A stretch of DNA of 64,000 bases from a virus: the IMG/VR virus record IMGVR_UViG_3300039355_000071; one strand, written 5' to 3'. Within the stretch, counting starts at the first letter, position 1. The number at the start of each line of letters is the position of its first letter. Below, one piece after another: positions 18,859-25,590 of this stretch. The notes under the pieces were generated by a model. The model ran no database searches and was not told the DNA's origin. It saw only the letters and a program-made list of their open reading frames with translations. A program made the position numbers and the translations under genes.

Positions 18859-19009
18859 AAGAAATGACGATTTCATCGGGAAGGGAGATATTAATATGAC
18901 AAATTATTCAAAATTTGAAGGTAAAATTATTCGAATGAATAAACCTTATCCGATTACAAATGATGAAGATGAAATTTTAGGATATACATAAGTTGGTGAT
19001 ATGGCGGTT

Positions 19010-19273
19010 ATCACTTTTTCTGAACTTAAAAACAAAATTGGATATAGAAAAGTGGCAGATATTTCAGACGAATTAGGTATAGTCATTCCATTTGATACAG
19101 GGAAAGAGGAAGGATATTTTGAAACGGTTATAGTATCTGGGAAATTTATTGGAGTTGATTCTTTAGCATTAGATTTAACTGATATAAAGGAATCTACTTT
19201 TATATTCAATAACAAGGATAAAAATGGAATAGCAGTTATAGATAATAGAGAAATTAATTACGAATATATTTGA
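19010..19273 (+). CDS. hypothetical protein
   Basis: ATG at 19010 inside the track ORF. Confidence 0.35.
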   Translation: MTFSELKNKIGYRKVADISDELGIVIPFDTGKEEGYFETVIVSGKFIGVDSLALDLTDIKESTFIFNNKDKNGIAVIDNREINYEYI

Positions 19274-19289
19274 TAATCCAAAGAAAAAT

Positions 19290-19372
19290 TGCTTTCTTGT
19301 TGAAAGCAAATCAAATATAGAAATGAGTATTAGAAGCAGAAATCAACTGCTTCTTTTTTGTTGCAAAAAAAT
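19290..19372 (+). terminator. two tandem Rho-independent terminators
   Basis: TTGCTTTCttgtTGAAAGCAA, then GAAGCAGaaatcaaCTGCTTC followed by TTTTTTG. Confidence 0.65.
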
Positions 19373-19381
19373 GAGGTGATG

Positions 19382-19684
19382 AATATGTGTAAACGACATG
19401 ACAATACAAACAGATCAAGTGAATTTATCTGTTTAAGATGTCTTAGTAAAAATCAAGTTGGTGATAAAATGCGTAGACCGAATATGAGAGAAAAAGATCA
19501 TGTAAAAAACTTGTGTTGTCTATGTACAAAGTTGCAAATGAGAACTAAAAATCTTGAAGTTAGGTGGTGCGATGATTTTGACGAGCGTATGGAATACGCA
19601 AAGAAAATTAAACCCAGATATTATGATGAGAATAATGAACTGCTACCTGAATGGCAAACGGAGAATATGTATGTAGGAAAGTGA
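19382..19684 (+). CDS. Cys-rich zinc-finger protein (100 aa)
   Basis: RBS GAGGTGA. CLRCLSKN..CCLCTKL. Confidence 0.45.
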   Translation, partial: NMCKRHDNTNRSSEFICLRCLSKNQVGDKMRRPNMREKDHVKNLCCLCTKLQMRTKNLEVRWCDDFDERMEYAKKIKPRYYDENNELLPEWQTENMYVGK

Positions 19685-19689
19685 GGTTG

Positions 19690-20715
19690 ATGAACATGTG
19701 TTACAAAATAGAAGTACAAAACAAAAATGCTGAAAAGCTTAATATGAAGTTGGATGAGTTAAACGCACCACAGTTTTTAAGAGGTTACTTGAATGAATTG
19801 GAAAGTAAAAGTGGAGCGTTAAATTATTTAGTGGCAATTAAAGATTTTTTACAGTGGTTGATTGAAAGTAATATCATTAATAAAAAATCAATTTCTGAAA
19901 TAGAAGTTTCTGATTTTAGTGACTTACGACCACAAAATATTAGTTCATACCTTAGATATAAAGAAACAAATGGAATGTCACCAACCACAACGGAAACAAG
20001 AAAGAATATTATAAAAAGTTTTATAAAAAATGTATATTCATATAGAGAATGTTTATTGAGAGAACTCTATAACAGTATGGAAGATTTTAGTAAACAAATA
20101 AAATATAAAGGAATATCTTCTAAAAACAACTTAACACAAAAACTTCCAACAGAAAATCAGCTTAATGATATGGAAGAAAAAATAATGTGGAAAAAGGATG
20201 AATGTGTAAGGAATAGAAATATTGCTATTTTTCGTGTCTTAAGAGGAACTGGAATAAGAGAGTCTGAACTTGCTGGCTTGGATTTATCAGATTTGCATTT
20301 AGATGAAAATAATGAATATATTGATCTTAATGATATGTCACATATTATGGTTTTACCAAAAGGATATCAAAGAGAAACTGAAAAAAGACCTGTGTATCTT
20401 ACTGGATCTGCTCTGAAAGCATTAAGAGAATGGTTAGAGTATAGAAATACATTGGATAATATTGTAGACAAAGAAGCTGTGTTCGTAAATAAAAATGGTA
20501 CACGTACAACAGAGAGAAATATCAAACAGATATTTGAGAATTATGGAAATGGTATTACTCCACATATGATGCGACATTATTATGCTAGTATAATGAACAG
20601 AAATGGAAATCTTGCATTTGTTCAGCAGCAGTTGGGGCATAGTAGTGTAAATACAACAGTTAATAATTATGCCAATGGAGCTGTGGGAATGAAAACAGTT
20701 TTGGAGAATATGTAA
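19690..20715 (+). CDS. int: tyrosine site-specific recombinase/integrase (XerC/D-like)
   Basis: TGIRESELAGLDLSDL (Arg box), HMMRHYYAS and LGHSSVNTTVNNYAN (His-x-x-Arg and the catalytic Tyr region). RBS GTGAGG. Confidence 0.8.
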   Translation: MNMCYKIEVQNKNAEKLNMKLDELNAPQFLRGYLNELESKSGALNYLVAIKDFLQWLIESNIINKKSISEIEVSDFSDLRPQNISSYLRYKETNGMSPTTTETRKNIIKSFIKNVYSYRECLLRELYNSMEDFSKQIKYKGISSKNNLTQKLPTENQLNDMEEKIMWKKDECVRNRNIAIFRVLRGTGIRESELAGLDLSDLHLDENNEYIDLNDMSHIMVLPKGYQRETEKRPVYLTGSALKALREWLEYRNTLDNIVDKEAVFVNKNGTRTTERNIKQIFENYGNGITPHMMRHYYASIMNRNGNLAFVQQQLGHSSVNTTVNNYANGAVGMKTVLENM

Positions 20716-20933
20716 TGAAAGTAATAAGCACAAGAGAAATGATAGAGACGCTGCAAAAATACGAAAAGAATTACGGCGTAGGCATAATAATTGGGTTCAG
20801 CAACGAGATCGTTGAACCCAATTATACCATTAAAATAGCTAATAGAAATGAATTTGGATTAATTAAAAATCCACAATATCAACCATTGGAAATACCAATT
20901 TCTATGGTTAGCTTAAGTGAAATATTTATTTAA
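20715..20933 (+). CDS. small protein downstream of the integrase (excisionase-position gene)
   Basis: ATGA overlap with the integrase stop. 72 aa. Confidence 0.35.
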   Translation: MKVISTREMIETLQKYEKNYGVGIIIGFSNEIVEPNYTIKIANRNEFGLIKNPQYQPLEIPISMVSLSEIFI

Positions 20934-21160
20934 TTATTTTGGATAAGTGATTGCATTCTGATATTTGACGACTTGAAAAGTTCATTTGGAGAACATTCTA
21001 ACGCAATGCAAATCTTTTCAAGAGTATCAAATCGTATATTAGTTGTCTCGCAATTATATATTTTATTTATTGCGTTAGGTGCTATACCAGTTTCTTTTGC
21101 AAGCCAATATTGTGTTTTATTTTTATTTATAAGAATGGATTTTATGTCTAGCTGTAACAT
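20930..21160 (-). CDS. XRE-family HTH repressor (cI-like position)
   Basis: TQYWLAKETGIAPNAINKIYNCETTNIRFDTLEKICIALECSPNELF. Divergent from the toxin-gene promoter. Confidence 0.7.
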   Translation of the reverse strand: MLQLDIKSILINKNKTQYWLAKETGIAPNAINKIYNCETTNIRFDTLEKICIALECSPNELFKSSNIRMQSLIQNN

Positions 21161-21226
21161 ATTTTACCTCCTATACATTTTTGTAAATAGATTATCATAA
21201 AATATTATATTTTACAATAATATATC

Positions 21227-21255
21227 TTGACATATATCATTTGCAGGTATATAAT
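21227..21255 (+). promoter_or_regulatory. consensus sigma-A promoter for the MazF-like gene, with flanking inverted repeats
   Basis: TTGACA, 17 nt, TATAAT (a perfect match). TTGTAAA..TTTACAA inverted repeat just upstream. Confidence 0.65.
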
Positions 21256-21306
21256 GCATAGTATCAAAGGTAATCCATTACATAAATATAAGAGAGGAGG
21301 ATACAT

Positions 21307-21687
21307 ATGGATTTACAAAGATACGATATAATTAAGGCAAACGTAAAATATGAAGGTGGATCAGTCCAAACAAAAGAACGTCCATATGTTATCGTGTCGA
21401 ATCCGATTGGAACAAAACACGCTACGATAATCACAGTGATGCCTTTGACTTCAAAAATAAAGAAATTGAATATGCCAGTTCACGGTTGTATTAATGCAGA
21501 TGATAAAAATGGATTGACAGAATATTCAATGCTACTTGGTGAACAGTTAATTACTATTTCAAAAGAAGAAGTAATTAACAAATTAGGAACTGTTACAGAT
21601 GAAAAAGAGAAAAAGTTAATTGATAAGGTTTGTTTTAATTCTTTATTTTTTGGAACAGAATATAGACTAGAGGAGGTAACTGCGTAA
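21307..21687 (+). CDS. mazF: MazF/PemK-family endoribonuclease toxin homolog
   Basis: KERPYVIVSNPIGTKHATIITVMPLTSKIKKLNMPVHGCI..EYSMLLGEQLITISKEEV aligns along its length with NdoA/MazF (RPVLVIQND..PT.IVAAITSQ..K..LPTHV). Confidence 0.7.
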   Translation: MDLQRYDIIKANVKYEGGSVQTKERPYVIVSNPIGTKHATIITVMPLTSKIKKLNMPVHGCINADDKNGLTEYSMLLGEQLITISKEEVINKLGTVTDEKEKKLIDKVCFNSLFFGTEYRLEEVTA

Positions 21688-21941
21688 TGTATGTAAGTAA
21701 AGAAATGGCAAAAAAGATTATTGATGAAGCACCTGGAAAAATTTGGATAGATTCATTTAATGGACTTACATTTATTCATACAAAACCAAGACAAATCAGT
21801 ATTGATGAAGGAAAGAATATGATAAATAATGCATCTACAGTTGATTATCAAGACAATGAAATCTTCGGAAGATTATGTTTGGAGGGAATTCAAGAACTAA
21901 TGATACACAATATAAATTTTCCGCTTAAACTTAGAGAATAA
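21687..21941 (+). CDS. hypothetical protein (84 aa), translationally coupled to the MazF-like gene
   Basis: TAATG overlap. Confidence 0.4.
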   Translation: MYVSKEMAKKIIDEAPGKIWIDSFNGLTFIHTKPRQISIDEGKNMINNASTVDYQDNEIFGRLCLEGIQELMIHNINFPLKLRE

Positions 21942-22018
21942 ATGTCCATTTTATCGGACTGAAAATGTGATAAATATATTTACAGAGCAAAAAAGCAAAC
22001 ACACGTTCGAAAAAACAG

Positions 22019-22047
22019 TTGACAAAAACAAACATACGTTCTAATAT
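22019..22047 (+). promoter_or_regulatory. promoter of the same family as P1-P3, upstream of the tRNAs
   Basis: GTTGACAAaaACAAACATacgttc then TAATAT. 17-nt spacer. Confidence 0.5.
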
Positions 22048-22264
22048 TGTTCTTGTAAAACAAAAAAGATAGAGTTAAGCGGTGCTGGAACACCAAATGC
22101 TCAACTCTATCCAACCAATACATACAACAGCATAAGCTATCGTAAGGCAGAACAAAAGTTCTACGTTAAATTATAATACATAGATTTTCTTTGAAAGTCA
22201 AGTGGTTCGAGTATTTCTGCTTTAAAAATCCATTTTTTACAATTTAATATGGAAAATAACTTAT

Positions 22265-22336
22265 AGGGCATTTGCCAAGCGGTAAGGCACAGGATTTTGA
22301 TTCCTGCATTCACCAGTTCGAATCTGGTATGCCCTG
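22265..22336 (+). tRNA. tRNA-Gln (anticodon UUG)
   Basis: Manual cloverleaf. Acceptor AGGGCAT/ATGCCCT. Anticodon stem CAGGA/TCCTG with loop TTTTGAT. T arm ACCAG-TTCGAAT-CTGGT. 72 nt. Confidence 0.85.
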
Positions 22337-22593
22337 CTATGTAACATTCCACCCGGTATGTTTCAGAACGCAGATTTAAAATCTGTAAGCGCAGACTGTA
22401 AGCTGCGTAAGTTCTTATGGAGAATAACTCACTAAAGAGTTACATAGTCAACAGTTCGTTTCTTGATTTAAAATTTGTTGGCAAGCCTAGCGGTCGGCTA
22501 GTTGTGGATTACAGGTCACATTAATTCTTGTAAAGCTTTGTCCACTTACGGATGTATCCAATGTCAATACCCGTCAGTCTTGGCATTGGTTAT

Positions 22594-22667
22594 GGATCAT
22601 TAGCTCAGTTGGTCAGAGCAACCGGCTCATACCCGGTAAGTCGTAGGTTCGAGTCCTATATGATCCA
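22594..22667 (+). tRNA. tRNA-Met (anticodon CAU; elongator, initiator or Ile-lysidine type not resolved)
   Basis: Acceptor GGATCAT/ATGATCC. D arm GCTC-AGTTGGTCA-GAGC. Anticodon loop CTCATAC. T arm GTAGG-TTCGAGT-CCTAT. 74 nt. Confidence 0.85.
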
Positions 22668-22691
22668 TTACAAAATAATAGTAGAAGGGAG

Positions 22692-23309
22692 ATGAATGTA
22701 TTGGCTCAATATGTTATTACTGATGGAACTCGCTGGGTTATGCGTGACAGAAATAATAAATACGTTCCAACATCTAATGAAGCACTTGCTGATGTATTTG
22801 GAAATAAAGAAGCTAATTCTGTGTATCAAAATAATTTACCAAAGGCATTGAAATCGGTCTTTCATATTCAGAAAATCGACACGCCACCAAAGTTGGTAAA
22901 ACAAATCACACATGCAGAAGTGCAAGAGAATACAGAAACGGTGTCAGTTGCAGAAAATATCCAATATTGGATGGATAAGATATCTGGATTAAACGGACTT
23001 GCTTCTGAAGCATTACATAGAAAAGAAGAATTGATTAATCAGTTAAGCGAAGTTGATAAGGAGCTTTGTGACATAAACCATTACATAGAATTCTGTAACC
23101 TTAATGCAGCACAAGGCTATAAGGCATACAAAATGATAAAAGATAGGAGAGTGAAAAGGAGAAGTATTAAGAATGAGTTAGATGTTCTAAATGTTATTCT
23201 TGGAAAGAAGATATCTGAATCGGTAAGTGATGAATTACAAAAGATGATTAACGGATTAGATGGAAGAAAATATGAACCAAGAGTTATGAATGAACTGTTC
23301 GATTTTTAA
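22692..23309 (+). CDS. hypothetical protein (205 aa)
   Basis: ORF after the tRNAs. RBS AGAAGGGAG. Confidence 0.45.
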   Translation: MNVLAQYVITDGTRWVMRDRNNKYVPTSNEALADVFGNKEANSVYQNNLPKALKSVFHIQKIDTPPKLVKQITHAEVQENTETVSVAENIQYWMDKISGLNGLASEALHRKEELINQLSEVDKELCDINHYIEFCNLNAAQGYKAYKMIKDRRVKRRSIKNELDVLNVILGKKISESVSDELQKMINGLDGRKYEPRVMNELFDF

Positions 23310-23323
23310 GCGAGGTGATGAAA

Positions 23324-23512
23324 ATGATTATTTGTAGAAATTGTAACACTCCAATGGAAAATGTAATGTCATTCTCGAAAGATAAGAATGAGAAATTTTC
23401 ACGATGTCCCAAATGCTTTAGTGAAACAAAGTACACAAATATACAAGTTGGTGAATTGACTTTTGGAGAGTATTTACATAGAGAATTAAATAAGAAGGGA
23501 CATATAAAATGA
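23324..23512 (+). CDS. zinc-ribbon protein
   Basis: CRNCNT..CPKCFSE. RBS GAGGTGA. Confidence 0.45.
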   Translation: MIICRNCNTPMENVMSFSKDKNEKFSRCPKCFSETKYTNIQVGELTFGEYLHRELNKKGHIK

Positions 23513-24165
23513 TAACAAAAGAAACTATGTTAATCATTAAATCCAATCAAAAAATGTTGGACATCATTAATACATACATGCAGGATGACATGAAAAAGTT
23601 AAAACCAATATGTCATAAGGTTTGGGAAGGGAAAGTTAGCACAAGCGAATACGAGGATTTATATGATGTAGCAACGGATTGTCTTATAGAATCAGTTGTT
23701 CAATATGATCATTCAAAGTCTTCTTTTAAGACTTTTCTTACTGGAAATATTATGCGAAAGACAAGCACATGGATAAGAGATAATAAATATACTCTTAAAT
23801 CAAGTAATCTGGAAAGAGATAAAAATGGAAAGATCCTACGGGATGAGGATGATATTCATAAAAGACCTAAAAGAATTGAGAATATATCACTAGATGATCC
23901 AATGGAAGATGGTGGAGACTTAAAAGAAATGATACCTGGTACATTTAAAAATCTGTATGATGAATTATTTTATGAAGATTTAAGTGATATTAAGATACGA
24001 AATTATTTAAGCAAACTATCAGATATTCAAAAAGAAATTTTATCATATTTGATAAAAGGTTATGAAACTAAAGACATACAAGAGTTATTACATATTTCTA
24101 AAAAAGATTATGGTAATCATATAGCAGCTATTCAGGCTTATGAAAACGTTAGAGAATTAATGTAA
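23509..24165 (+). CDS. phage-encoded sigma-70-family sigma factor
   Basis: Region-2-like FKTFLTGNIMRKTSTWIRDN. Region-4 HTH EILSYLIKGYETKDIQELLHISKKDYGNHIAAIQAY. Confidence 0.6.
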   Translation: MITKETMLIIKSNQKMLDIINTYMQDDMKKLKPICHKVWEGKVSTSEYEDLYDVATDCLIESVVQYDHSKSSFKTFLTGNIMRKTSTWIRDNKYTLKSSNLERDKNGKILRDEDDIHKRPKRIENISLDDPMEDGGDLKEMIPGTFKNLYDELFYEDLSDIKIRNYLSKLSDIQKEILSYLIKGYETKDIQELLHISKKDYGNHIAAIQAYENVRELM

Positions 24166-24183: not shown

Positions 24184-25590
24184 ATGGCAAAGAAAGTAAG
24201 GGAACAAGCAATCGCATTATCTTCATATTTAAAAAGTGTAAATAGTGAAGATATATCGGAGAATCAGGATGTACAGAGAATGTTTTGTTGGGACAATCCG
24301 GCAATAAATGAACTTATTGTTACTGTACTTACAGATGATTACATTCCTCCTATTATTCTTGGCGAAGAGGAGCTTGGTGGAGATTTAACACAACAATATA
24401 TTGTTGATGGTATTCAAAGAACTACAGCTTTAAATAAGTTCCGTCATATGAATTGGAAAACAACAAAATCATTTGAAAATAGTGTTATTCAGTATCAAGC
24501 GAAAATGAGGGATAGTGAAGGACATCTTATCAAGGATAAAGATGGTAGTATTCTTTGGGAAAATCGGGAGTTTGATATTAAAAATAAAACTTTCGAACAG
24601 TTACCAGATGAACTTAAGAAGAAATTCGATGATTATCAGATTCGTATTGTAATTCATCAAAATTGCACTATGCAGGAAATAAGCAAGCTTGTAAGACGTT
24701 ATAACCGCAACAAGAGTATGGGTTCAAACCAGAAGGCTCTAACATGGATTCCTACATATGCAAGAAAAATTAAGAACATTGCTAATAACGAGTTCTACAA
24801 AAATTGTGTTTCTTACTCAAAGTCAATGCGTAAGAACGGTACATACGAGCAAACAGTTGCAAATTCTGTGATGGCAACATTTCATCTTAATGATTGGAAA
24901 AAGACACCAAACGATAGAAATGAGTACCTTGAAGAGAACTCTTCGTTTGATGAATTTGAAAAGGTAAATGAATATGGAAATCGTATTGCAAAAGTTTGTG
25001 GAAACAAATTTCAGAATATATTCGTATTTAAGGATATTCTTTGTTGGATTGCAACATTCTACAATTTTACAAAATTTGGACTCAAAGATGAGAAATTCGC
25101 AGAGTTTGTAAATGCTCTTGTAAATGAATTACATGGGAAAGTAGTTGGTGAATGGAGTTATGACATGCTTGATAAAGAAGCTGGTACATCTGATAAAAAG
25201 ATTATTCAAGCCAAAATTGAAACATATACCACTTTAATGATGAATTATTTACATATTAATCCAGAAACAGCAATAGAAAATTCAGAAGAAACAACTCTTT
25301 CTTTTGTTCAGGAAAATGCAAATCCTGACGCTACAGAAGAGGATATTGAGTTTTACAGAGATATGGTTGAGGATTGCGTAAGGGTGGACGAGCCTGTATA
25401 TCAGCAGTGTGAAAGGGCTGTAATTGCTATTATGGCTTATGCTTGTATGAAAGAACAAGATGAGGAATTTGAAAAATGGATTCAGAGATATAAAAATCAG
25501 ATAAATTTCAGTCCTTCACAGAAAACAAATTTTACATATATGAAAAATAGTTTTGATAAATATGTTCAGAAAGGAGCTAGTGGGAAATAA
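24184..25590 (+). CDS. DUF262 (ParB/Srx-fold, GmrSD N-terminal-like) domain protein
   Basis: YIVDGIQRTTALNKF matches the DGQQR signature of DUF262. 468 aa. No HNH/DUF1524 C-terminal nuclease motif seen. Confidence 0.5.
   Translation: MAKKVREQAIALSSYLKSVNSEDISENQDVQRMFCWDNPAINELIVTVLTDDYIPPIILGEEELGGDLTQQYIVDGIQRTTALNKFRHMNWKTTKSFENSVIQYQAKMRDSEGHLIKDKDGSILWENREFDIKNKTFEQLPDELKKKFDDYQIRIVIHQNCTMQEISKLVRRYNRNKSMGSNQKALTWIPTYARKIKNIANNEFYKNCVSYSKSMRKNGTYEQTVANSVMATFHLNDWKKTPNDRNEYLEENSSFDEFEKVNEYGNRIAKVCGNKFQNIFVFKDILCWIATFYNFTKFGLKDEKFAEFVNALVNELHGKVVGEWSYDMLDKEAGTSDKKIIQAKIETYTTLMMNYLHINPETAIENSEETTLSFVQENANPDATEEDIEFYRDMVEDCVRVDEPVYQQCERAVIAIMAYACMKEQDEEFEKWIQRYKNQINFSPSQKTNFTYMKNSFDKYVQKGASGK

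What the first reader, a model, noticed from the sequence alone, without database searches (positions are those of the whole stretch)
19285..22670. Lysogeny-like module in which a MazF/PemK toxin occupies the Cro position, bracketed by tandem terminators and two tRNA genes
The order is two terminators, integrase, a small overlapping ORF, an XRE repressor on the minus strand, a perfect TTGACA-17-TATAAT promoter with inverted repeats, a MazF-like endoribonuclease and a coupled 84-aa ORF, then tRNA-Gln and tRNA-Met. No upstream antitoxin gene is visible, so the toxin may be held in check transcriptionally by the divergent repressor or by the downstream 84-aa protein. This is either an unconventional genetic switch or abortive-infection unit, or a small integrative island embedded in the phage with the tRNAs as attachment landmarks.
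Basis: partly seen in the sequence, partly recalled or inferred. Interest (0 to 1): 0.6.

Follow-up and report, generated by a model that had tools for sequence, protein, structure and literature searches.

The report
Repressor-gated MazF cassette in gut phage
A family of large uncultured gut phages carries an RNA-cutting MazF toxin gene welded to a previously undescribed small partner gene, switched by a neighbouring repressor that closely related phages swap like a cassette; it is a new variant of a toxin-antitoxin or genetic-switch module, not an inserted island.

Summary
About 80 related phage loci show what belongs together.

**Conserved core:** a consensus TTGACA-17-TATAAT promoter, a conserved leader, an active-site-intact MazF gene (21307-21687) and an overlapping 84-aa gene (21687-21941).

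**The 84-aa protein:** it founds a new family of about 52 clusters. All 5 distant members I looked up lie directly after a PemK/MazF gene. AlphaFold gives a confident globular alpha/beta fold (pLDDT 95) with no significant structural match.

**The repressor:** the divergent gene plus the promoter spacer (about 20934-21248) is a swappable cassette. Nine non-homologous regulator types (XRE or RHH-like) each come with their own repeats inside the promoter spacer. The regulator is therefore a repressor of this promoter, not a co-evolving antitoxin.

**The recombinase:** it is Xer-like, always adjacent, and also swapped between relatives.

**The tRNAs:** they are ordinary conserved phage genes, not att landmarks. 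No tRNA repeats occur in the window, and no prophage or plasmid copy was found.

a conserved minus-strand RNA of about 115 nt (22055-22168, strong covariation), and a LexA-box promoter (22019-22047) leading to the tRNAs and the phage sigma factor gene.

**Best reading:** a three-component, repressor-gated MazF-partner cassette inside a dormancy-type control region. That the 84-aa protein is an antitoxin is inferred, not shown.

The parts
19289..19309 (-). Intrinsic-terminator-like hairpin with its U-run on the minus strand. It would stop leftward (antisense) transcripts.
   Evidence: sequence
19332..19354 (+). Intrinsic terminator for rightward transcripts coming from the upstream small-gene region.
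   Evidence: 8-bp stem followed by TTTTTTG
19379..19684 (+). Cys-rich (zinc-ribbon-like) small protein found directly upstream of the recombinase gene, whichever recombinase type is present, in nearly all relatives whose upstream flank is held. Function unknown. The mechanical ORF starts at TTG 19358.
   Evidence: no family hit
19651..20715 (+). Tyrosine recombinase, Xer-like. The R..K..HxxR..H..Y motifs are visible by eye. The likely start is 19690 or 19696.
   Evidence: PF00589 2e-27. Best NCBIfam hits are XerC, XerS and XerA, all far below their cut-offs. Relatives carry other recombinase types in the same position.
20715..20933 (+). 72-aa ORF coupled to the recombinase gene. It is present in only about 9 relatives. 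It contains a perfect 13-bp inverted repeat at 20787-20799 / 20813-20825.
20930..21160 (-). 76-aa XRE/HTH_26 DNA-binding protein, the type-specific repressor of the mazF promoter. It is little more than the HTH domain and has no extra toxin-binding domain.
20934..21248 (.). Swappable cassette: the regulator gene, its operators and the promoter spacer. Homology to relative L004 stops at the orf72 stop codon and resumes at the -10 box, although L004's MazF is 99% identical to the window's.
21173..21255 (.). Control region. It holds P_mazF (-35 at 21227-21232, -10 at 21250-21255) and a back-to-back minus-strand promoter that shares the -35 region (21233..21204). It also holds inverted repeats TTGTAAA/TTTACAA and ATAATATAT-CTTGAC-ATATATCAT.
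21262..21306 (+). Conserved mRNA leader TATCAAAGGTAATCCA..TACATAAA..GAGAGGAGGA..TACATATG. It has two UACAU motifs, at 21279 and 21302.
21307..21687 (+). MazF/PemK-family endoribonuclease, 126 aa. The B. subtilis EndoA R25 and T48 equivalents are retained.
21687..21941 (+). 84-aa partner protein, the first described member of a new family. It is translationally coupled, globular alpha/beta, and an inferred MazF inhibitor.
21996..22047 (+). Promoter TTGACA-17-TAATAT (22019-22047) with LexA (Cheo) box-like sites at 21996-22009 and 22029-22042. It reads into the tRNAs and onward toward the sigma factor gene.
   Evidence: consensus from PMC2248561
22055..22168 (-). Conserved structured small RNA of about 115 nt with three hairpins. 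The last hairpin is an intrinsic terminator followed by a U-run.
22173..22201 (-). Promoter TTGACT-17-TATTAT of the minus-strand RNA, convergent with P(+) at 22019.
22265..22337 (+). Phage tRNA-Gln (UUG).
22593..22668 (+). Phage tRNA-Met (CAU).

Best explanation
The locus is a three-part, repressor-gated MazF cassette inside the conserved control region of a clade of roughly 150-190 kb uncultured gut phages. Their hosts are probably Firmicutes.

**Step 1 (supported by comparative evidence).** The small divergent DNA-binding protein, XRE in this window, binds type-specific repeats that overlap the -35 box and 17-nt spacer of a consensus sigma-A promoter. This shuts the promoter. The regulator's own back-to-back promoter shares the -35 region, so it is probably autoregulated.

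**Step 2 (shown by sequence).** When free, that promoter transcribes a bicistron. It consists of a conserved leader, an active-site-intact MazF endoribonuclease, and an overlapping 84-aa gene with its own strong ribosome-binding site.

**Step 3 (inferred).** The 84-aa protein is a compact alpha/beta protein of a new family seen only directly after these MazF genes. I infer that it is MazF's cognate inhibitor. The system would then work like the three-component toxin-antitoxin systems omega-epsilon-zeta and PaaR-PaaA-ParE, where the DNA-binding regulator is separate from the antitoxin. Here the toxin gene comes first and the regulator is divergent and exchangeable.

**Step 4 (inferred).** With repressor present, as in an established or dormant phage genome, the pair is silent. 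Without it, on entry into a naive cell or after loss of the repressor, a burst of MazF plus partner is made.

The neighbours are a Xer-like recombinase, a convergent antisense small RNA, and a LexA-box promoter feeding the tRNAs and the phage sigma factor gene. They suggest a dormancy, maintenance or exclusion role rather than a simple lytic nuclease.
For: **Repressor-promoter link**
- Across 79 loci, 9 regulator clusters (at 70% identity or more) each have their own spacer family, while the TTGACA box and the TATAAT-like -10 box stay fixed.
- Each type has repeats or palindromes with one copy in or on the promoter spacer. Examples:
  - CAAGTTGATGACAACTTG
  - GGTTTATATAAACC
  - TTAAGATATA, three copies
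  - ATATATTGTTAA, two copies
  - CAATATATAGTCT, two copies
- MazF that is 99% identical pairs with a regulator that is only 34% identical. The swap breakpoints lie at the orf72 stop codon and at the -10 box.
- The regulators are minimal DNA-binding domains of 56-99 aa, either XRE or RHH-like.

**mazF-orf84 unit**
- It is the most conserved block in the neighbourhood, present in 70-71 of 72 loci.
- The two genes are always adjacent and overlapping.
- The orf84 family has 52 representative clusters. All 5 distant members I looked up follow a PemK gene.
- The partner in relative L001 is a remote member of the family (hhalign E=1.7e-4).

**MazF competence**
- R25, P26, N32, T48, H59 and E79 are kept in 125-127 of 127 family members.
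- The best solved relatives are S. aureus MazF and B. subtilis EndoA.

**orf84 properties**
- AF2 pLDDT is 94.7 and pTM is 0.84.
- It has no DNA-binding fold and is mildly acidic (pI 5.6).

**Context**
- A structured minus-strand RNA occurs in 67 loci.
- A LexA box sits in the promoter spacer in 70 of 71 loci.
Against: - It is fully folded, unlike classical type II antitoxins.
- The toxin-first gene order is unusual for MazF.
- Single MazF-like genes with no visible antitoxin are common in Firmicute phages and may simply be phage RNases.
- The operators of the window's own regulator type are the least clear of all types.
- No dormant state is documented. There is no copy in species-representative genomes or in plasmids.
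- The rest of the window looks like a large lytic phage, with NAD salvage genes, a tRNA nucleotidyltransferase and a sigma factor.
Confidence: 0.55

Rival explanations
1. The locus is a true lysis-dormancy switch. The divergent regulator is the phage's immunity repressor. P_mazF is the first rightward lytic promoter, and its transcript runs on through the tRNAs to the sigma factor gene. MazF, with its partner, takes the place of Cro as the commitment factor. The recombinase integrates the genome or resolves multimers.
For: - The layout is recombinase, then divergent repressor, then a consensus promoter.
- Repressor/operator types are swapped on a conserved backbone, as in heteroimmune temperate phages.
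- No convincing plus-strand terminator lies between orf84 and the sigma factor gene.
- A LexA-box promoter and an antisense RNA sit next door.
- LexA-run lysogeny has a precedent in GIL01 (PMC4551915).
- Relatives carry other toxin-antitoxin genes (Phd/YoeB, HicA) and a Bro/ANT antirepressor gene.
Against: - No prophage or plasmid copy was found. No attP or dif-like site was found.
- The recombinase gene converges on the repressor gene rather than being co-oriented with it.
- Type-specific operator motifs did not appear at the downstream promoter when I read its sequences by eye. That promoter has its own consensus boxes, so the sigma factor gene need not depend on P_mazF.
- The regulators lack oligomerisation or cleavage domains.
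Confidence: 0.3
2. MazF is an early host-takeover RNase of a strictly virulent phage. It is fired at once from a host sigma-A promoter and then shut off by the newly made regulator, acting as a delay timer like the C-proteins of restriction-modification systems. orf84 limits or redirects its activity.
For: - The promoter is a consensus host-type promoter, and the region is full of small early-type genes on one strand.
- Single MazF-like genes occur in virulent Firmicute phages, for example Lactiplantibacillus phage Gut-P1 and probably Perkons.
- The regulator gives a weak hit to the PADLOC 'Control_protein' model.
- The window carries lytic-type auxiliary genes.
Against: - A timer does not explain why nine mutually non-homologous repressor/operator types are swapped among near-identical phages.
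- It does not explain the adjacent recombinase gene or the LexA boxes.
- UACAU, the site cut by the closest characterised MazF enzymes, is not avoided in the phage's coding strand: 113 observed against 100 expected.
Confidence: 0.25
3. The XRE protein itself is the MazF antitoxin, a type II pair encoded divergently, and orf84 is unrelated cargo.
For: - XRE-type antitoxins exist in other toxin-antitoxin families such as HigA, MqsA and HipB (PMC3879964).
- The regulator gives a weak NCBIfam hit to the PezA antitoxin (E=0.0067).
Against: - Nearly identical MazF proteins pair with non-homologous regulators, including RHH-like ones.
- Those regulators are bare DNA-binding domains of 56-76 aa with no room for a toxin-binding segment.
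- It is orf84, not the regulator, that stays linked to MazF at all depths of divergence.
Confidence: 0.05
4. The locus is a small integrative island inserted into the phage, with the tRNA genes as attachment sites.
For: - A recombinase gene lies within 2 kb of two tRNA genes.
- G+C content is slightly lower at 18-22 kb: 0.29 against about 0.32.
Against: - The same gene order is found in about 80 relatives, including very distant ones.
- The tRNAs are conserved phage genes, and some relatives that keep the cassette lack them.
- No 12 nt or longer stretch of either tRNA is repeated in the window.
Confidence: 0.03

Closest known systems
Three-component toxin-antitoxin systems (omega-epsilon-zeta of pSM19035; PaaR2-PaaA2-ParE2 of E. 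coli O157 prophage). This comparison rests on my own knowledge of the literature.
   Same: - Transcriptional control is carried out by a separate small DNA-binding protein. Omega is an RHH protein, and two regulator types here look RHH-like.
- A second small protein with no DNA-binding domain would neutralise the toxin.
   Different: - The toxin here belongs to the MazF family.
- The toxin gene precedes the putative antitoxin gene.
- The regulator is divergent rather than first in the operon, and relatives exchange it together with its operators.
- Neutralisation by the 84-aa protein is inferred, not shown.
Classical type II MazEF / PemIK / EndoA-EndoAI
   Same: The toxin has the same fold and key residues. 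It hits PF02452, and its closest solved relatives are S. aureus MazF and B. subtilis EndoA.
   Different: - There is no upstream co-transcribed MazE, PemI or RHH antitoxin.
- The partner gene is downstream and unrelated to MazE.
- Autoregulation is handed to a separate gene.
immI region of Salmonella phage P22 (mnt | arc-ant, plus sar antisense RNA). This comparison rests on my own knowledge.
   Same: - A small divergent repressor with overlapping back-to-back promoters controls a strong promoter.
- That promoter drives a two-gene operon whose product must stay off in the established state.
- A small antisense RNA is part of the region.
   Different: - No proteins are homologous between the two regions.
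- The gated product is an RNase plus partner, not an antirepressor.
- The RNA lies downstream of the operon, not inside it.
- The phage type and the host phylum differ.
Lysogeny module of temperate Firmicute phages (int - cI | cro) and LexA-run dormancy of Bacillus phage GIL01 (PMC4551915, PMC6182141)
   Same: - A recombinase gene sits next to a divergent repressor and promoter pair.
- Repressor and operators are swapped as in heteroimmune phages.
- Firmicute SOS boxes lie inside a nearby early promoter.
   Different: - The gene in the Cro position is MazF.
- The recombinase is Xer-like and its gene converges on the repressor gene.
- No att site and no prophage copies were found.
Single 'MazF-like growth inhibitor' genes of phages (PHROG 1936)
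   Same: The window's MazF matches this family at E=2.5e-20. Like those genes, it has no upstream antitoxin gene.
   Different: In the examples I examined, those genes sit inside co-oriented gene runs (replication genes in Javan405 and NatCom_19828, unnamed genes elsewhere). No divergent regulator is annotated next to them, and no orf84-family gene is detectable in GenBank phage records.

Membership tests
MazF/PemK endoribonuclease toxins | PemK/MazF domain with the catalytic Arg and Thr (B. subtilis EndoA R25 and T48) | tested here: met
   PF02452 at E=2.9e-17. PDB hits to MazF/EndoA at 6e-10 to 7e-9. R25 is kept in 125 of 127 family members and T48 in 125 of 127.
MazF/PemK endoribonuclease toxins | Sequence-specific RNase activity and growth inhibition | not testable with these tools
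   This needs expression and cleavage assays.
Classical type II MazEF/PemIK operon | Antitoxin gene (MazE/PemI, AbrB-type or RHH) immediately upstream and co-transcribed | tested here: not met
   The only upstream gene is on the opposite strand. No co-oriented ORF lies between the promoter and mazF.
Three-component toxin-antitoxin (omega-epsilon-zeta type) | A separate DNA-binding regulator controls the toxin-antitoxin promoter | tested here: met
   Regulator type and promoter-spacer repeats co-vary one-to-one across 9 types in 79 loci. This is comparative evidence; binding was not measured.
Three-component toxin-antitoxin (omega-epsilon-zeta type) | A small antitoxin without a DNA-binding domain binds and neutralises the toxin | tested here: inconclusive
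   orf84 is obligately linked to MazF and shows no HTH or RHH fold. No interaction test was possible.
Three-component toxin-antitoxin (omega-epsilon-zeta type) | All three genes in one operon | tested here: not met
   The regulator is transcribed divergently.
Temperate-phage lysogeny module | Integrase with an adjacent attP site, and prophage copies in host genomes | tested here: not met
   - A recombinase gene is present.
- No tRNA or att repeats occur in the 64 kb.
- There is no relative in 185,579 species-representative genomes or in PLSDB.
- The window covers only part of the phage genome, and hosts may be unsampled.
Temperate-phage lysogeny module | Divergent repressor and Cro-type HTH genes around shared operators | tested here: not met
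   The repressor and operators are present, but the first rightward gene is MazF, not an HTH protein.
Xer/dif multimer-resolution system | XerC/D/S/H-family recombinase | tested here: inconclusive
   The best NCBIfam hits are XerC (108 bits), XerS (105) and XerA (92). All are far below the curated cut-offs of 220-335 bits.
Xer/dif multimer-resolution system | A dif-like site of about 28-31 bp (two roughly 11-bp arms around a 6-8 bp spacer) near the gene | tested here: inconclusive
   - No convincing site was found in 18900-22700.
- Two candidates of unknown meaning exist: a 13-13-13 palindrome at 20787-20825 and a 16-6-16 repeat at 22555-22592.
Integrative island using a tRNA gene as att site | Direct repeat of the tRNA 3' end at the other border, and patchy presence of the island among relatives | tested here: not met
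LexA (SOS) regulated promoter of Firmicutes | Cheo box CGAACRNRYGTTYC (core GAAC-N4-GTTC) overlapping the promoter | tested here: met
   - A [GA]AAC-N4-GTT[CT] box lies in the spacer in 70 of 71 relatives, at two registers with a variable N4.
- The window has three boxes within 167 bp.
- The consensus is taken from PMC2248561.
- LexA binding itself was not tested.
Type I toxin-antitoxin (antisense RNA plus small hydrophobic toxin) | A small membrane-peptide ORF on the RNA opposite the antisense RNA | tested here: not met
   I saw no conserved small ORF with a ribosome-binding site in 21942-22264 on either strand when reading the sequence and the alignment by eye.
Known RNA families (Rfam 15) | A match of the 22055-22168 RNA to a curated model | tested here: not met
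   Only the two tRNAs pass any threshold. Nothing else scores below E=1 apart from chance hits.

The most novel reading that the evidence does not exclude
The cassette is the master dormancy-versus-growth switch of a large phage or phage-plasmid. An exchangeable immunity repressor gates an RNase rather than a Cro-type protein. Commitment would then be made at the RNA level: MazF cuts host or phage transcripts, possibly its own conserved UACAU-bearing leader, and is buffered by the new 84-aa inhibitor. Host LexA and a convergent antisense RNA control the adjacent sigma-factor operon.
Probability: 0.15. Interest if true: 0.8.

Novelty: new variant of a known kind. Interest (0 to 1): 0.6.

Why it matters
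- **A new protein family.** The locus defines an uncharacterised family that is always welded to a phage MazF. It is a candidate new antitoxin or inhibitor of a much-studied RNase.
- **A ready-made orthogonality panel.** Nature has already done the swap experiment. At least nine repressor/operator cassettes sit on one constant consensus promoter. This gives a small repressor-promoter toolkit for Firmicutes and an unusually clean case of regulator exchange.
- **An open question becomes testable.** What phage-borne MazF genes without antitoxins are for has no settled answer. The cassette sits between a recombinase gene, an antisense RNA and an SOS-box promoter feeding the phage sigma factor gene. 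That position hints that these abundant, uncultured 150-190 kb gut phages have a regulated dormant state.

Tried and rejected
- **Avoidance of UACAU in the phage coding strand.** A MazF-using phage might avoid the site cut by the closest characterised MazF enzymes. It does not: 113 observed against 100 expected. The depleted words are palindromic restriction sites.
- **UACAU enrichment in the regulator mRNAs.** This would suggest a double-negative loop. It is not seen: 5 sites against 6-9 expected.
- **A hairpin pairing the conserved leader with the start codon.** The fold is weak (-7.7 kcal/mol, z=-1.9) and the pairs never vary, so it is neither supported nor excluded.
- **att-like repeats of the tRNAs or of the recombinase-flanking DNA.** Only chance-level 12-13-mers were found.
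- **Prophage or plasmid copies.**
  - There is no relative of the 84-aa protein in species-representative genomes, PLSDB or GenBank phages.
  - There is no nucleotide match to isolated phages.
- **Scaffolds of 0.2-0.5 Mb that carry the module.** They could not be inspected beyond 10 kb. Their sizes could equally reflect concatemer assemblies.
- **First AF2 model of the 84-aa protein.** The shallow alignment gave a poor model (pLDDT 67) and meaningless matches. I replaced it with a deep-alignment model.
- **PADLOC.** MazF and the 84-aa protein match no known defence system.
- **The 223-aa MazF of C. botulinum phage-plasmids.** I checked it as a possible natural MazF-orf84 fusion. Its tail looks unrelated by eye and was not tested further.
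- **Herelleviridae affinity.** The 685-aa protein is 62% identical to Bacillus SPO1-like phage proteins, but the family (DUF8224) is spread over many phage groups. This is not taxonomic evidence.

Full report
**1. What is in the window**

- A plus-strand terminator lies at 19332-19354. A second hairpin at 19289-19309 has its U-run on the minus strand, so the two form a back-to-back pair rather than a tandem. The scan found 6 terminator-like sites against 1.2 expected.
- A tyrosine recombinase ORF lies at 19651-20715 (PF00589 2e-27). Its likely start is 19690 or 19696.
- A coupled 72-aa ORF lies at 20715-20933.
- The only minus-strand gene of the neighbourhood is a 76-aa XRE/HTH_26 protein at 20930-21160 (8e-16).
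- The only 12/12 promoter match is at 21227-21255.
- A PemK/MazF gene lies at 21307-21687 (3e-17; PHROG 1936 'MazF-like growth inhibitor' 2.5e-20).
- An 84-aa ORF at 21687-21941 overlaps the MazF stop codon (TAATG).
- tRNA-Gln and tRNA-Met follow.

The window is AT-rich (about 32% G+C), with nearly all genes on one strand. It carries large-phage auxiliary genes:
- NAMPT and PRPP synthetase
- a tRNA nucleotidyltransferase
- DNA methyltransferases
- a sigma factor

It has no nucleotide-level relative among isolated phages.

**2. Relatives**
- One unannotated 176-kb human-gut phage record (MT835469) has the same order at 41% MazF identity: recombinase, minus-strand XRE, MazF, small overlapping ORF, tRNA-Met, sigma factor.
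- IMG/VR holds 71 loci with MazF at 73-99% identity. The complete-looking contigs are mostly around 150-190 kb.
- Further contigs came from protein look-ups.

**3. What is constant and what is swapped**

tblastn across the loci and a nucleotide conservation map show that 21250-21950 is the one block present in 70-71 of 72 loci. This block is the -10 box, the leader, mazF and orf84. Both flanks are mosaic.

A small minus-strand gene always lies immediately upstream, but it belongs to at least nine mutually non-homologous clusters.
- Seven clusters are XRE/HTH types of 66-99 aa.
- Two clusters are RHH-like types of 56 and 72 aa. Their Pfam RHH_5 hits are below threshold at 18-22 bits, but the sequence pattern is typical.

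Relative L004 has MazF at 99% identity and orf84 at 100% identity to the window, yet its regulator is only 34% identical. The pairwise alignment puts the breakpoints at the orf72 stop codon and at the -10 box. The exchanged unit in the window is therefore about 20934-21248.

**4. The regulator is a repressor of the mazF promoter**

In 38 distinct upstream sequences the -35 box (TTGACA), a 17-nt spacing and a TATAAT-like -10 box stay fixed. The spacer changes with the regulator cluster, one spacer family per cluster.

Each type carries its own repeats, with one copy in or on the spacer and further copies towards the regulator gene:
- RHH type 1: CAAGTTGATGACAACTTG, plus TAAGTTG twice.
- RHH type 2: GGTTTATATAAACC, plus TATATAAAC twice.
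- One XRE type: TTAAGATATA, three or four copies.
- Another XRE type: ATATATTGTTAA, two copies.
- MT835469: CAATATATAGTCT, two copies.

A site between the -35 and -10 boxes of a consensus promoter implies repression by occlusion. That is an inference from standard promoter biology.

The window's own type is the least clear. It has the TTGTAAA/TTTACAA inverted repeat around the regulator's -10 box and a 10-nt inverted repeat flanking the -35 box.

The regulator's predicted promoter (21233..21204) shares the -35 region with P_mazF, so the two are back-to-back.

These regulators are bare DNA-binding domains, and they are exchanged under an unchanged MazF. They are therefore not co-evolving protein antitoxins.

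**5. MazF**

The closest solved relatives are S. aureus MazF and B. subtilis EndoA. The equivalents of EndoA R25 and T48, together with P26, N32, P57, H59 and E79, are kept in 125-127 of 127 family members. By sequence it is a competent endoribonuclease. Activity and specificity are untested.

**6. The 84-aa partner**
- It has no hit in Pfam, PHROGs, NCBIfam, PADLOC or PDB sequences.
- A word-indexed search found only close relatives.
- A full HMMER scan of 1.84 billion representatives found 52 clusters of 80-100 aa proteins. They share the motifs VSKEEAK..IDEAPGD, YQDNDFFG and HNILFPQLE.
- All five distant members I looked up lie directly after a PemK gene, in most cases overlapping it. Where flanks exist, a divergent small gene lies upstream.
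- The MT835469 partner is a remote member (hhalign E=1.7e-4).
- With the deep alignment, AlphaFold gives pLDDT 94.7 and pTM 0.84. The fold is a compact helix-strand-strand-helix-strand-strand-strand sandwich.

Shown: obligate genetic linkage and translational coupling to MazF, a folded non-DNA-binding protein, and pI 5.6.

Inferred: that it binds and neutralises MazF.

**7. The leader**

The 5' untranslated region is more conserved than the coding sequence. It contains two UACAU motifs, which is the site cut by B. subtilis and S. aureus MazF (from my own knowledge of the literature). A UUACAUA motif persists in the leaders of distant relatives whose leaders are otherwise different.

This suggests self-cleavage or processing, but other tests do not back it.
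- UACAU is not avoided in the phage.
- It is not enriched in regulator mRNAs.
- A leader-to-AUG hairpin is weak and invariant.

**8. Recombinase and lifestyle**

The recombinase scores best against XerC, XerS and XerA models, far below their cut-offs. In relatives the same position holds other tyrosine recombinase types of 243, 326, 343 and 370 aa. In nearly all relatives whose upstream flank is held, the Cys-rich protein gene precedes the recombinase gene. Recombinase types are freely reassorted with regulator types.

I found no att or dif-like site and no copy in species-representative genomes, plasmids or GenBank phages. Lifestyle is therefore open.

The pattern of swapped repressor/operator types, other toxin-antitoxin genes and an antirepressor gene in relatives, and the SOS boxes below all point towards a regulated persistent state. 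The auxiliary genes point towards a large lytic phage.

**9. tRNAs**

tRNA-Gln and tRNA-Met (or tRNA-Ile) occupy the same place in most relatives, at variable spacing. Some relatives that keep the cassette lack them. They are ordinary phage tRNAs, not attachment landmarks.

**10.

(a) **A conserved pair of convergent promoters.** P(+) at 22019-22047 and P(-) at 22201..22173 flank a minus-strand RNA of about 115 nt (22168 to 22055).
- It folds into three hairpins at -46.9 kcal/mol, z=-7.5.
- Its last hairpin is followed by a U-run.
- A covariance model finds it in 67 related loci, always 65-130 nt after orf84. This includes loci without tRNAs.
- The terminator helix is 98.5% paired, with compensatory changes in 9 of 13 pairs. 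Slid controls give 32-49% paired.
- Rfam has no match.
- It is antisense to the start of the P(+) transcript and to any read-through from mazF-orf84.

(b) **A LexA box in the P(+) promoter.** P(+) carries a Firmicute LexA (Cheo) box in its spacer in 70 of 71 relatives. The box appears at two registers and with a variable central tetranucleotide. Near-perfect examples are CGAACATATGTTCT and CGAACACCTGTTCG. The consensus is taken from PMC2248561. Three boxes cluster in the window at 21996-22162. This promoter leads to the tRNAs, a 205-aa protein, a 65-aa zinc-ribbon protein, the sigma factor gene and a GmrSD_N/DUF262-like protein.

**11. Verdict**

The divergent repressor does gate the toxin promoter, and the 84-aa gene is MazF's fixed partner. 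The island and tRNA-att idea is wrong.

The best-supported model is a three-component, repressor-gated MazF-partner cassette. It is closest in logic to omega-epsilon-zeta and PaaR-PaaA-ParE, and in layout to P22 immI. It is embedded in a control region that also holds an antisense RNA and an SOS-box promoter.

It is a new variant of a known kind, with one new protein family and one new candidate RNA. The antitoxin role of orf84 and the biological purpose (addiction or exclusion, lytic commitment, or host shut-off) remain to be tested.

Noticed in passing
window 22055-22168 (-), promoter 22201..22173: - A conserved structured small RNA of about 115 nt lies convergent to mazF-orf84.
- It is present in 67 related loci, including loci without tRNAs.
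- Its terminator helix shows compensatory changes in 9 of 13 pairs.
- It has no Rfam match.
- Its target and role are unknown.
   Followed up: partly
window 21996-22047 and 22149-22162: - Firmicute LexA (Cheo) box-like sites lie in and around the promoter that leads to the tRNAs and the sigma factor gene.
- A box sits in the promoter spacer in 70 of 71 relatives.
- This implies SOS-responsive control in a large phage.
   Followed up: partly
window 22338-22592: - A 255-nt G+C-richer insert separates the two tRNA genes. The same gap is 6-37 nt in some relatives.
- It is shared only with the closest relatives.
- It folds moderately well (z=-2.8).
- It ends in a 16-6-16 inverted repeat (22555-22592) that abuts tRNA-Met.
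- Its nature is unknown.
   Followed up: partly
window 20787-20825: A perfect 13-bp inverted repeat with a 13-nt spacer lies inside the 72-aa ORF. The arms are unchanged in relative L004 while the spacer differs. It could be a protein-binding or recombination site.
   Followed up: partly
window 19379-19684: A Cys-rich (CxxC...CCxC, NLEVRWCDD motif) small protein gene precedes the recombinase gene, whatever the recombinase type, in nearly all relatives whose upstream flank is held. It has no family hit. It could be a recombination directionality or DNA-binding factor.
   Followed up: no
L088 769-1926; L075 1067-2609: - Relatives carry further toxin-antitoxin genes (Phd/YoeB, HicA) in the same early region.
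- They also carry a second divergent HTH pair followed by a Bro-N/ANT antirepressor gene.
- The window lacks these.
   Followed up: partly
whole window: Palindromic hexamers are strongly depleted: ATCGAT, CTGCAG and CAGCTG occur 0 times, and GATATC and GAATTC 9 times each. GGNCC sites are also depleted. The window carries at least one DNA methyltransferase gene. Both fit restriction avoidance.
   Followed up: no
window 24184-25590 and 23509-24165: The sigma-factor-like gene and the GmrSD_N/DUF262 (ParB-nuclease-like; PADLOC NsnA 1e-11) gene are separate here. In distant relatives (L001, L088) they are fused into one protein of 750-765 aa.
   Followed up: no
L085 (ENA ERZ28579015 scaffold_1, 470,424 bp); also contigs of 333-502 kb listed: Some contigs carrying the module are two to three times the usual genome length. 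They could be concatemer assemblies, larger relatives or host-linked copies. I could not inspect them beyond 10 kb from the gene.
   Followed up: no
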